A stretch of DNA of 64,000 bases from Octopus vulgaris (lineage: Eukaryota), in contig OX597822.1 of NCBI GenBank assembly GCA_951406725.2, positions 84,754,001-84,818,000 on the forward strand, written 5' to 3'. The notes beneath the pieces are model-generated. The model ran no database searches and was not told where the DNA came from. It saw nothing but the letters and a program-made list of their open reading frames with translations. Made by a program: the position numbers and the translations under genes. How positions within the stretch are numbered: the stretch's first letter is position 1; each line of letters begins with the position of its first letter. Below are positions 2,847-57,853 of this stretch, in pieces.

Positions 2847-2918
2847 AATCTAGCTGAAGACTAATCAAATTTACGATAACAAACGTATTTGAAGTGTTCG
2901 AAACCTAGGTACTAGATT
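2847..2918 (+). ncRNA. Minimal type-I hammerhead ribozyme motif (Penelope-type)
   Basis: Stem I AATCTAG/CTAGATT, core CTGAAGA (2854-2860), imperfect stem II (TCAAAT..ACG/CGTATTTGA), GAAA (2900-2903), palindromic helix III ACCTAGGT, cleavage triplet GTA. Confidence 0.7.
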
Positions 2919-3231
2919 ATCCGATTCTGGGTTGTCCATTTATCTAATGTTCTTCTTAGAGGTAAGATGAAATTCTCTTTCATCCTCCCTCAATTGTGCC
3001 CTGACTAATGGTTTTGGACTGGGAGTTATTTTACCTGCCACACTTTCACCTCAAACACCACTACAACTCTAGCACTTTTCAGTTTGTCTATATCAGACGT
3101 AATACATGTGGCCCCTTTTCTTATAAGTCCTTTTCGGTATGGGTTACATTGTCATCAGAACCAAATCATGATCAATGCTGACATCCACACCAAGGAAAAC
3201 CCTAGTCCTTGCCTTGTTGTTACTGGACTTG

Positions 3232-3522
3232 ATCATTGAGATATTGACTGGATGTTTGATTTTGACCACTCTCGCTACATGTTTTGGGGACACGGCATGC
3301 TAACGGTTGTTCTGTGTGTTTCCCATCTGTTCGTATTGGAGCTTCCAGCGCGAATGCCAAGCAGTACAGCAAGTCGTTTCCAAACTCCTGGCAGAGTGAA
3401 TTGTGTCATGGTGCTGCTTTGCTCACAGACGGTGCCCAACTGACCCTACTATTCTGTGTAGTCGAAACAAAAAAACCGCATGCACAAATATAAAATGGCG
3501 ACAATTTACCAATCGCACTCTG
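3232..3522 (-). mobile_element. Internally deleted Tc1/mariner (maT-like) element, 5' end
   Basis: Minus strand begins TA|CAGAGTG at a (TA)n tract. It reads MTQFTLPGVWKRLAVLLGIRAGSSNTN, then jumps to NTQNNR*HAVSPKHVARVVKIKHPVNI, homologous to the start of the 4371-4900 transposase relic. Confidence 0.7.
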
Positions 3523-4092
3523 TATATATATATATATATATATATATATATATGAAAAATAATCGGCCGAAATTGCGATGATAATCTGGTGCTTGACTGA
3601 GGATAGAGGGCTTCGAATGACCCGTCCTTGTTTTCTTTGTATCGTCTTTCTAGATGTTTTGCTGTCCCTTTTTGTATCACGTAGCTGTCCAGAAGTTTTG
3701 CGTACTTGTCCTATTTTGTATTTTATATATACATATATATACACTAGTATATGTGCATGAAACACCACACAGACACCCATGTCTAAATGAGTAATTAAAG
3801 TATTTACAAGAATTGCAGTTTGCAAATGTACTAATATATTTCTTTTTACGACATCGACTCATGTCTAAACAGTTTCAGACTACACTCACCCACCCTCACA
3901 CTCACGCTCACGTCCCCCCCCATACATATATAATGCACAACTACTTAATTATCATACACGCTATTCACACGGCTCTTACGATTTATTCTCGTATTTTCCC
4001 ACATATACTCATACATCATGCAGAAGCAAGCACATACATTCATACGTACGTACGTGCACTCATACATTACTCTAGAATTATCCACAATGCTA

Positions 4093-54943: not shown

Positions 54944-55401
54944 TATACAATATGTTACATTACTCGGTAGTCAAGATAAAACTCTGAGTTTCAGATGCCG
55001 AAGTGGAAATCCACAACACCATCTCTTCGGTTATCTGGCTATTTGAAAACGTTATGAAAAAATACCGTTAAAAATGAAGGGAAATTACTCTGTTATAACT
55101 CTGCTTTGCCTGCGTACTTATACATCGCTCGCATTTTTCGTCGAAAAATGCGAGCGATGTATAAGTACGCAGCAAAGCAGAGTTATAACAGAGTAATTTC
55201 CCTTCATTTTTAACGGTATTTTTCATAACGTTTTCAAATACCAGATAACCGAAGAGATGGTGTTGTGGATTTCCACTTCGGCATCTGAAACTCAGAGTTT
55301 TATCTTGACTACAGTAATGTAACATATTGTATAGATAAATTTCCTCTATTTACATAATATTGAGGTCTCTTTCTTTCTTTTGTTATCTTACCGTTTTATC
55401 A
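54944..55401. mobile_element. ~195-bp-arm palindrome (inverted pLTR pair) carrying an HHR-like motif in each arm
   Basis: Arms 54944-55140 and 55142-55333; right-arm motif AGATAA-CCGAAGA-GATG..CATC-T-GAAA-CTCAGAG-TT-TTATCT at 55243-55305; (TA)n flanks. Confidence 0.8.
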
Positions 55402-57517
55402 ATATATATATATATATATATATATATATATATATATACACATACATATACATACATAACATACATACGTTGTACATTTATAGGTACCTAAATATCTAAT
55501 ACATGTACATGTGTGTGTGTGTGTGTGCTTGCGTATATAATTAAATATAATACACATCCCATGTAATTAGACATGGCACAATTAGAGAGTCAAAGTATAT
55601 ATTCACATATCCACACATAAACAAATAAGGCCACTCCTACAAAAATATACAACCACACATACATGCATGCACATATACACATACATAAATATTCACAAGA
55701 TATCTTCTCAATCACACAGCGACATACAATCAACAGATATTCCATACATATCACGCCACAGTGAAAGTATGGAAGGCGTTAAAAAGTGAAGCTGGGAGTT
55801 TCCGTTACACAGGAATGACTATTACACGGTGAGCTTCGCCAGTTTTGGCCAATTGTTTATTCAAGGTTTGTGATGGCCCGGTCCCCGTTCTTAAAATAAC
55901 AATATTAGTTTCGTTGTCTGAGCGATTACCGTGGTCAGAGGTTAAGGGGGTTGATACTGTAATGCAAGCTGGGACGGGGGTGATCAACGGATCCAATTAC
56001 ACTTGCAATATACCTATATATATATATATATATATATATATATATGTGTGTGTGTGTGTGTGTGTGTATGTATGTATGTATATATATGTGGGTGTGTGTG
56101 TATGTATGTATGTATATATACATACATATATATATTTTTATATACAAATATATATATATATGTATATATATATATATATATATATATACCTATATATAAA
56201 TAATATATATTATGTATATATACATATATATATATATTATATTATATATACATATAATATATAATATATATATATATATATATACAATATATATATATAT
56301 TGTGTGTGTGTGTGTGTGTGCGTGTATGTACGCACATACGTAAGTATGTGCGGATGGATGGATGGATTTGTTACAGATTCGGTGTATGAGAATGTACCTG
56401 CATATGTGTGTGCCTGTGGATATATATACGGGTATACATTTATGTCTACTGGAACGTTGTATATGTGGATATATATATATGACAAAGTATCAATATATAT
56501 GTATATATGCATACATATATATATGTGTGCGTGTGTGTGTATGTGTGCGTGCATGTGTATGTATGTCTGTGCGTGGGTATGTGTGTGTACGTACACGTGC
56601 GTGTATGTGTATCTGTGTGTGTGTGTGTGTGTGCGATGTGCGACCGTGCGAATGTGTGTGTGTGTGTGTGTGTTTAAGGAATGAAATCTGGCAAATAAGT
56701 CTGAAATCTAATTACTAGTTTTTTTTCCCCCTTTTTCTGTCAAATGTCTTTCAAATGTCCTGTGGCGCCATCAACCGCGAGAAGCACACAACAGCTGGGT
56801 TGGTGTTGTTGTTCAGTTTACGGGGAACGCAGAGAGGTACAAGTGGGTATGTATGTGTATATGTGTGTGTGTGTGTGTATATGTGTGTGTGTGTATGTGT
56901 GCGTGTGAGCATAAATAAAGATACATACACGCAAATGTATATAAATATACTTATACGTATATTTAAAAACATACATGCATTTAAGTGTGTGTGTGTATAT
57001 ACATATAATGTATTTATATACATATTCGTATCATATATATATAAATACGGACATCTGCATATATATTCATACATATACAGGCAATACATCTATATATAGG
57101 TTGCATCTATATTTATCTATACTTTACATACATAGTGTACATATATTATCCATACAAAAATATGCGTGTGTATGCACACAGGCAGCATTTTAATTCTATG
57201 GTTGTATGTGTATATGTATGCAAAAAAATATGTAAATATATATGTACGCACAGATACACGCGCACACACATTTGTATGCACATGTATTTCTTTCTTTCTT
57301 TCTTTCTTTCTTTCTTTCTTTCTATCTATCTATCTATCTATCTATCTATCTATCTATCTATCCATCTATCTATCTATCTATCCATCTATCTATCTATATC
57401 AATACATATATTGTTCAGAAACCGATCTTCTCTGTATAGAATACACTAGTGCTCAAGAGAGTTAAACTTGATCAGCTAGAGGAGTAAATGTAAGGACAAG
57501 GAAGTTAGGCGAGTTGA

Positions 57518-57853
57518 TATACAAAAAATATTCAATACATTTAATACAAAAATATGTTTACATATAAAAAGGTCCAACCTACACAGAATAGAAATAATAT
57601 CGGGAGTTAAAGGGGTTTTATGAGACCAACAGCTGTTTCTGGGGGTTTGGTGGTTCAAAATAATGATTGTAAATTGATTGCATTGTCGGATAATACCAGT
57701 CCCCGTCTTCAGGGAAGAAGTTTTCGATTTGAGGTGTTGACAGAAAGGAGATTAATTCCTGATATCATTTCTATTCTGTGTAAGACAGACTTTTTTTTAT
57801 ATGTAAACATATATACAATTTTTGTATTAAATGCATTTAATATATCTTGTATA
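57518..57853. mobile_element. Penelope-like pLTR relic: inverted repeat enclosing a minus-strand HHR (57624-57716)
   Basis: Arms 57518-57610 / 57752-57853; minus strand CTGAAGA-CGGGG..CCCCA-GAAA-CAGCTG-TT. Confidence 0.65.

What the first reader, a model, noticed from the sequence alone, without database searches (positions are those of the whole stretch)
2847..57716. About seven hammerhead families in one window, each with a different self-complementary helix III
Seen: the sequences spanning GAAA and the cleavage triplet are ACCTAGGT (2.9 kb), AACGTT (16 and 43 kb), ACTGACGCGTCAGT (38.7 kb), ACACGTGT (41 kb), ACATATGT (51.3 kb), ACTC-A-GAGT (55 kb) and ACAGCTGT (57.6 kb; remnants at 36.0 and 47.2 kb). 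Stems I and II are unrelated in sequence between families but mostly still pair. Known: minimal PLE hammerheads with palindromic helix III are proposed to work as dimers. Inference: the palindrome could act as a family-specific pairing code allowing homodimer but not heterodimer activation. The density implies a very large number of such motifs genome-wide.
Basis: partly seen in the sequence, partly recalled or inferred. Interest (0 to 1): 0.75.

Follow-up and report, generated by a model that had tools for sequence, protein, structure and literature searches.

The report
Penelope hammerheads with shared palindromes
The window holds real self-cutting-RNA (hammerhead) motifs at the ends of seven families of repeats, five of them tied to Penelope-type jumping genes; their self-complementary third stem likely lets two copies pair up, as already published, but unrelated families reuse the same palindromes, so it is not a family-specific code.

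Summary
The seven motifs are real. Each is a type I hammerhead at the 3' end of a dispersed repeat family in a 2.8-Gb, octopus-like genome. Five families have a Penelope-like element (PLE) RT/GIY-YIG ORF upstream; two have no ORF found. A strict descriptor found 26 hits in 1.2 Mb of random genome against 1-5 in controls, about 55,000 genome-wide.

Corrections: helix III at 16/43 kb is ACGT, not AACGTT. The 38.7-kb family can fold as a monomer. The 36.0- and 47.2-kb remnants are not copies of the 57.6-kb family. Most window copies are damaged.

The code idea is half right. Folding energies predict homodimers over heterodimers among these seven. But 14 of 34 sampled families share their palindrome with another family, 5,121 cores outside the 57.6-kb family carry its ACAGCTGT, and stem I, also swapped in a dimer, already discriminates. 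Seven distinct palindromes arise by chance 59% of the time.

Dimer-type PLE hammerheads are published (PMC4209133), and this scan noted the same on other genomes. Residual interest: amplified core variants (U4C, non-paired 10.1-11.1) and one pLTR with a tRNA-like head.

The parts
2847..2918 (+). F1 type I hammerhead, helix III ACCTAGGT, H17=A; 3 nt deleted at the base of helix II in this copy; about 425-bp terminally redundant repeat unit, no ORF found
4105..4160 (-). Decayed hammerhead-like remnant (CTGATGA ... GAAAACGTTG; cleavage-site letter uncertain), family unresolved
14515..14600 (-). Remnant of another repeat family with GAAACACGTGTA (same palindrome as F4), core lost; inverted partner near 14943-15044
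15825..15892 (-). Inverted partial copy of the F2 pLTR
15893..15936 (+). Internally deleted tRNA-like head (A and B boxes) of the F2 pLTR, followed by (AAT)n
16057..16102 (+). F2 minimal hammerhead, helix III ACGT, H17=U, intact; pLTR of a Penelope/Poseidon-type element
35965..36050 (+). Decayed hammerhead (CTGATAA, ACGGCTGT) of a family other than F7; inverted partner at 35861-35901
38500..38526 (-). Inverted partial copy of F3
38696..38748 (+). F3 canonical type I hammerhead, helix III ACTGACGCGTCAGT (predicted monomer-competent), A6G in this copy; about 340-bp unit
40920..41012 (+). F4 hammerhead, helix III ACACGTGT, G10.1-U11.1, long helix II; no ORF found
43218..43263 (-). F2 minimal hammerhead, left arm of an inverted pLTR pair
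43506..43551 (+). F2 minimal hammerhead, right arm; one helix II mismatch
47225..47335 (-). Coreless remnant with ACAGCTGT; not an F7 copy, probably a distant relative
51259..51348 (-). F5 hammerhead, helix III ACATATGT, H17=C; spacing between stem I and core disrupted in this copy
51628..52714 (-). Broken PLE RT-thumb/GIY-YIG ORF remnant upstream of F5
54314..54399 (-).
54974..55036 (-). F6 hammerhead (U4C core, ACTCAGAGT), left arm of an inverted pLTR pair in (TA)n
55243..55305 (+). F6 hammerhead, right arm; young family (94-99% identity) with a Neptune-like RT + GIY-YIG ORF in other copies
57625..57715 (-). F7 hammerhead, helix III ACAGCTGT, C10.1.A11.1 mismatch, stem I only 2-3 bp

Best explanation
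The motifs are type I hammerheads at the 3' ends of seven repeat families, five with a Penelope-like RT/endonuclease ORF upstream, and the palindromic helix III likely lets two copies of one element in a tandem transcript swap strands into a double hammerhead; the palindrome is likely a slowly changing lineage trait forced by self-pairing, not a selected family code. Shown: core, stems and palindrome exist in each family; ORF links for F2, F3, F5, F6, F7; 5'-truncated copies with a short 3' end, often in inverted pairs; identical palindromes in different families. Inferred: in a head-to-tail precursor each active site takes CUGANGA, helix II and GAAA from one copy and the UH plus the 3' strand of stem I from the other, so helix III must be self-complementary and both helix III and stem I are intermolecular; heterodimers would then fail as a by-product of divergence. 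Inferred: the window copies are solo or on opposite strands and mostly damaged, so they are probably inert leftovers.
For: ORFs upstream on the same strand: F6 26 of 30 loci, F5 13 of 30, F7 3 of 30, F3 1 of 30; F2 4 of 30 (tblastn E down to 7e-47). Descriptor excess 26 vs 1-5. 31 of 34 families are self-complementary with G-U allowed, 24 perfectly. Monomer hairpins are unstable and homoduplexes stable for the 8-9-mers. Sharing: ACGT x3, ACAGCTGT x4, ACAATTGT x3, ACACGTGT x2, ACATATGT x2; 38 of 561 family pairs have compatible helix III, and 32 of those 38 lack a 4-bp cross stem I. ACAGCTGT is constant over 5,121 cores whose helix II loop, 10.1/11.1 and U4/C4 vary in the 100 rows listed. The helix III variants listed within families break symmetry, many by CpG decay, and none restores it. 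Published dimer model and palindromic loop 3: PMC4209133, PMC3088659 Fig. S8 legend, PMC6765202.
Against: Helix III contributes more predicted discrimination than stem I among the seven (mean 13.7 vs 7.8 kcal/mol), and for F5/F7 only the palindrome discriminates. Same-strand pairs of full hammerheads lie within 1.5 kb in only 7 of 210 loci against 47 inverted pairs (some loci overlap), so cis dimers are rare in genomic copies. F1 and F4 have no ORF in 44 loci each. F2 gains nothing from dimerising in the energy model (+0.7 kcal/mol). No cleavage was measured. Motif positions are better conserved than flanks (2.6% vs 4.5% non-CpG differences), which fits selection but does not say on what.
Confidence: 0.8

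Rival explanations
1. The palindrome is a selected self-recognition code that keeps co-expressed families from activating or cutting each other.
For: All 21 heterodimers among the seven are predicted unfavourable; helix III alone gives 5.6-24.5 kcal/mol; F5 and F7 have compatible stem I but different palindromes; 25 distinct strings among 34 families.
Against: 14 of 34 families share a string; 5,121 non-F7 cores carry F7's palindrome; seven distinct of seven has chance 0.59; the window itself reuses ACACGTGT and ACAGCTGT; F3 can fold as a monomer; stem I already discriminates in 20 of 21 pairs.
Confidence: 0.1
2. The fold is mainly a protein-binding or structural element of the pLTR; cleavage is dispensable or protein-assisted, which would explain the tolerated core changes.
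For: U4C is fixed in the young F6 family (29 of 29 other copies) and in about 45 of the first 100 rows (counted by eye); G10.1-C11.1 is often replaced by a mismatch. In the anole Poseidon element the hammerhead cuts only with protein, and catalytic mutants still insert in vitro (PMC11167929).
Against: C3, G5, A6, G8, A9, G12-A14, U16.1 and a non-G H17 are kept in the family representatives, although the descriptor demands these; U4C keeps a viroid infectious (PMC3088659). This rival is partly compatible with the best explanation.
Confidence: 0.25
3. The longer palindromes simply fold back as short hairpins, and these ribozymes work as monomers.
For: F3 forms 5 bp plus a tetraloop (-2.8 kcal/mol); the F1 window copy's minimum-energy fold holds stem I and a 2-bp helix III; invertebrate canonical hammerheads with short helix III cleave as monomers (PMC7229834).
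Against: Symmetry runs through the would-be loop (24 of 34 perfect palindromes), which a hairpin does not need; 8-mer hairpins cost +2.0 to +2.4 kcal/mol.
Confidence: 0.15
4. Chance matches in low-complexity DNA.
For: Rfam finds no hammerhead at gathering score; only 2 of 7 window copies fold clearly better than shuffles.
Against: 26 vs 1-5; 4,010 vs 0; 5,121 vs 3.
Confidence: 0.01

Closest known systems
Minimal and palindromic-helix-III type I hammerheads in pLTRs of metazoan PLEs (Cervera & De la Pena 2014, PMC4209133; parts 1-2 of 4 read, supplements not seen)
   Same: Type I topology, position in the pLTR, many sequence families per genome, mostly solo or inverted copies, palindromic helix III/loop 3, proposed dimer; F2 matches the minimal consensus (extra A, G10.1-C11.1, ACGU).
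   Different: Most families here have 8-nt or longer palindromes and long helix II; G10.1-C11.1, called highly conserved there, is often a mismatch or wobble; U4C is amplified; the estimated count (about 55,000 strict) exceeds the 2,000-9,000 they report per genome.
Small PLE hammerheads that cleave as dimers (Lunse, Weinberg & Breaker, RNA Biol 14:1499; not held, seen only as a title and as cited in PMC6765202 and PMC7761336)
   Same: Short palindromic stem III and dimer cleavage, per the title and the review passages.
   Different: Cannot compare details; it may already cover long palindromes, core variants or heterodimer tests.
Neptune-clade and Penelope/Poseidon-clade PLEs (Craig et al. 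2021, PMC8557442, passages; Frangieh et al. 2024, PMC11167929, passages)
   Same: RT plus C-terminal GIY-YIG, 5' truncation, inverted partial copies, short tail, microsatellite targets; F6 has a Cys-rich linker, the F2 ORF lacks one.
   Different: Clades were assigned from motifs and BLAST, not from a tree; the F2 pLTR begins with a tRNA-like A/B-box head.
Non-LTR retrozymes and schistosome SINE-like hammerhead repeats (PMC7229834 passages; bioRxiv 10.64898/2026.07.22.740005 part 1 of 5; PMC6765202 passages)
   Same: F1 and F3 have 330-430-bp terminally redundant units; short F2 copies are a Pol III-type head plus a hammerhead.
   Different: No long tandem arrays were seen; F2 and F3 are tied to ORFs; no circular RNA is shown.

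Membership tests
Type I hammerhead ribozyme | CUGANGA ... GAAA ... UH core with helices I-III | tested here: met
   Majority rows of F1-F5 and F7 keep the core; F6 has U4C; intact in 7-29 of 29 other copies per family
Type I hammerhead ribozyme | G10.1-C11.1 pair at the base of helix II | tested here: inconclusive
   Met in F2, F3, F5; G.U in F4, A.C in F1, C.A in F7, extra 3' base in F6
Type I hammerhead ribozyme | Self-cleavage after H17 | not testable with these tools
   No bench test; fragmented RNA-seq showed no pile-up of ends, which cannot decide
Dimer-type (double) hammerhead | Self-complementary helix III too weak as a monomer | tested here: met
   F1, F2, F4-F7; not met for F3, which forms a stable hairpin
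Dimer-type (double) hammerhead | Two same-strand copies in one transcript | tested here: inconclusive
   7 of 210 loci within 1.5 kb; none in the window; full pLTR-ORF-pLTR units exceed the fetched flanks
EN+ Penelope-like element | RT and GIY-YIG ORF upstream of the pLTR | tested here: met
   F2, F5, F6, F7; F3 on one locus only
EN+ Penelope-like element (F1 and F4) | RT and GIY-YIG ORF upstream of the pLTR | tested here: inconclusive
   None found in 44 loci each; not filed as autonomous PLEs
EN+ Penelope-like element | 5' truncation, short tail, inverted or partial-tandem copies | tested here: met
   Variable upstream extent in the six families measured; inverted copies in F2-F6; terminal redundancy in F1, F3
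Family-specific pairing code | One palindrome per family, not shared | tested here: not met
   14 of 34 families share; 5,121 non-F7 cores with ACAGCTGT
Family-specific pairing code | Heterodimers disfavoured | tested here: met
   Computed only: 21 of 21 pairs, 5-38 kcal/mol
tRNA-derived SINE (F2) | Pol III A/B-box head on a non-coding element | tested here: not met
   The head is present (A and B boxes; weak tRNA alignment of 13.1 bits), but it follows a PLE ORF in 4 of 30 loci, so it is part of a pLTR
Non-LTR retrozyme (F1) | Tandem units with a hammerhead in each, circular RNA | tested here: inconclusive
   1 of 30 loci with a direct pair; terminal redundancy in 3 of 21; circRNA not tested

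The most novel reading that the evidence does not exclude
Octopus-type genomes carry a dimer-obligate hammerhead variant in which a long intermolecular helix III compensates for a weakened core (U4C, unpaired 10.1-11.1). Helix III and stem I together would act as a two-part kin-recognition key, letting 30 or more co-resident PLE lineages, and short non-coding copies of them, cut only their own kind in trans.
Probability: 0.15. Interest if true: 0.6.

Novelty: new member of a known kind. Interest (0 to 1): 0.27.

Why it matters
As it stands it extends a known motif to a cephalopod-like genome at high density (roughly 55,000-95,000 intact-looking cores). It supplies a natural panel for a still open question, what PLE hammerheads do: families with the same palindrome but different stem I, families with the reverse, one monomer-competent family, and amplified core variants. 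If the two-part recognition held in vivo it would be a simple RNA-RNA kin-recognition system among transposons and a source of orthogonal ribozyme pairs.

Tried and rejected
Rfam: the E-value scan was swamped by microsatellite miRNA hits (top 150 of 424 seen); the gathering scan was empty.

The ORF beside F1 in L038 belongs to another family. Searches for long F4 and F1 copies gave no upstream ORF. A search with the F2 tail returned nothing, probably because its words are too common. Pfam on short broken pieces gave nothing.

RNA: no RNA holder listed. Three raw RNA runs of a coded organism that may be another species gave 4,280-5,905 F2 reads each, about equal in both orientations, with no place where many molecules begin or end (the reference copy had a deletion at the cleavage site). 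F6 gave 42 and 25 reads. Neither says anything about cleavage.

Five weak singleton clusters (18, 24, 26, 34, 35 of 39) were dropped before the 34-family counts. Singletons may be decayed copies, and some clusters are related (28/33, 0/27).

Lunse et al. was not available. Paper searches listed no paper on a palindrome family code or on octopus hammerheads; I saw listings and passages only, and most subscription journals are not covered.
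Full report
Setting. The window is G000:C9:84754001-84818000 of a 2.8-Gb assembly, rich in microsatellites. I infer an octopus-like animal; the one named protein hit is from an octopus.

Observation. All seven strings are present directly after GAA and before A, C or U. A descriptor requiring CUGANGA, helix II, GAAA, UH and a 4-bp stem I, but no palindrome, gave 4 window hits against a mean of 0.05 in 100 shuffles. 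In 120 random 10-kb stretches it gave 26 hits against 2 reversed and 1-5 shuffled; 14 of the 26 were perfect palindromes and most others were one change away. That extrapolates to about 55,000 (34,000-83,000) strict motifs, 77,000 with a relaxed descriptor (36 vs 3) and about 95,000 by family BLAST (41 intact cores in 1.2 Mb, self-hits included). Whole-genome patterns agree: 4,010 exact F2 cores vs 0 and 5,121 cores ending in ACAGCTGT vs 3. The axolotl has 126,247 type I hammerheads and a coral over 6,000 in 16 families (PMC7229834, passages), so the number is high but not unprecedented.

Anatomy. Thirty loci per family show the following. F1 has a 7-bp stem I and A.C at 10.1-11.1. F2 is a textbook minimal hammerhead whose helix III is ACGT, not AACGTT. 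F3 is canonical, with a 14-nt palindrome that folds as a monomer. F4 has G.U at 10.1-11.1. F5 has a long helix II. F6 has CCGAAGA (U4C) in every row. F7 has C.A at 10.1-11.1 and a 3-bp stem I. Intact core plus helix III survives in 16, 14, 7, 22, 17, 29 and 15 of 29 other copies. In the window only F2's three copies and a missed eighth motif at 54.3 kb pass the strict test. The 36.0- and 47.2-kb remnants do not match F7 copies.

What carries them. A PLE ORF lies upstream on the same strand for F6 (26 of 30 loci; weak Pfam GIY-YIG match, E 0.007; Cys-rich linker), F5 (13 of 30, including the window copy at 51628-52714), F7 (3 of 30) and F3 (1 of 30). F2 starts with a tRNA-like head with A and B boxes, then (AAT)n. 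F1 and F4 showed no ORF in 44 loci each; F1 has a terminally redundant unit of about 425 bp. Copies are 5'-truncated to variable lengths. Full hammerheads occur as inverted pairs in 47 of 210 loci and as same-strand pairs in 7 (some loci overlap). These features match published PLE insertions (PMC8557442, passages).

Mechanism. In the published double-hammerhead model (PMC4209133, parts 1-2 read), two copies swap strands. My topological reading, an inference, is that each active site uses the core and helix II of one copy and the UH plus 3' stem I strand of the other. Identical partners then need a self-complementary helix III, and stem I is intermolecular too. Energies fit: 8-9-nt palindromes cost +2.0 to +2.4 kcal/mol as hairpins and give -7.0 to -11.4 as homoduplexes, while F3 gives -2.8 as a hairpin. 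The likely substrate is a head-to-tail precursor. The window's pairs are on opposite strands and could not dimerise in cis. Function in vivo is open: in one Poseidon element cleavage needs protein and is dispensable for insertion in vitro (PMC11167929).

Testing the code. For it: all 21 heterodimers among the seven are predicted worse than homodimers by 5.3-37.8 kcal/mol; helix III alone gives a mean of 13.7 and stem I alone 7.8; for F5/F7 only the palindrome discriminates (generic helix II, no tertiary terms). Against it: 198 relaxed hits fell into 39 clusters, 34 kept after dropping 5 weak singletons. These have 25 distinct helix III strings and 14 families share theirs; 38 of 561 pairs have compatible helix III, and 32 of those lack a 4-bp cross stem I. 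The 5,121 ACAGCTGT cores have helix II of 12-40 nt and so exclude F7 (66 nt); the 100 rows listed form several related subfamilies that differ in loop, 10.1/11.1 and U4/C4 while the palindrome stays. Seven random families from the 34 have seven different strings 59% of the time. The within-family helix III variants listed break symmetry and none restores it. The palindrome therefore marks lineages and is reused; exclusivity, where predicted, comes from helix III and stem I together and needs no selection for a code.

Known and new. Palindromic helix III, the dimer model, many families per genome and solo or inverted copies are in PMC4209133 and PMC3088659 (Fig. S8 legend); dimer cleavage is in Lunse et al. 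(title only; not held). Earlier notes of this scan reached the same verdict on other genomes and described similar families in this one; they are leads, not support. Searches listed no octopus hammerhead paper (the 2026 O. vulgaris repeat paper has no 'hammerhead' or 'ribozyme') and no family-code paper. What may be new is modest: frequent non-Watson-Crick 10.1-11.1 positions and U4C in amplified families (6 of 34 representatives; about 45 of 100 rows, by eye), against a consensus that calls G10.1-C11.1 highly conserved; a U.U at that position is known in axolotl and U4C in a viroid. Unseen supplements may already show these.

Verdict. Real, correctly recognised as PLE-type dimer hammerheads, a new member of a known kind; the family-code inference fails its own test. 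Interest 0.27.

Noticed in passing
window 15893-16170; L003:851-1660; L005:1500-2360: The F2 pLTR begins with a tRNA-like A/B-box head and (AAT)n right after the ORF end; many copies start at the head, so short Pol III-driven, SINE-like copies are possible. About 10 insertions in 1.2 Mb; the stretch is held by six coded organisms.
   Followed up: partly
L328 and L038, about 430 nt downstream of their GIY-YIG ORFs: Another PLE family has a hammerhead-like fold with C in place of A9 (CTGATGC core) and a near-palindromic helix III.
   Followed up: no
G000-wide rows: A clade of at least 5,121 hammerheads has freely varying 10.1/11.1 letters (A.A, A.G, A.C, C.A, U.U) and U4C in roughly half of the rows listed.
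   Followed up: partly
window 2959-2967 (F1); L057, L041: F1 has a 5' splice-site-like AG|GTAAG after the hammerhead and a pyrimidine-rich acceptor-like stretch upstream, as expected for a pLTR intron in tandem copies (motifs recalled, untested).
   Followed up: no
window 38640-38701 (F3): The purine-rich stretch before the F3 core reads as a short open frame whose TAA stop forms part of stem I.
   Followed up: no
L171 and other F6 loci: The young F6 family's RT shows YKDD and frameshifts in several copies, so the amplified version may be non-autonomous.
   Followed up: no
window 27509-28561 and 25446-26126: Tandem repeats of 354-bp (3 copies) and 327-bp (2 copies) units; the first contains CTGACGA twice but no matching GAAA core within 45 nt.
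   Followed up: no
L335-L343 (G000:C21, C35, C36, C1): Near-identical F4 copies with shared flanks lie on several small contigs and on C1 and C21; probably a segmental or satellite amplification, or redundant assembly.
   Followed up: no
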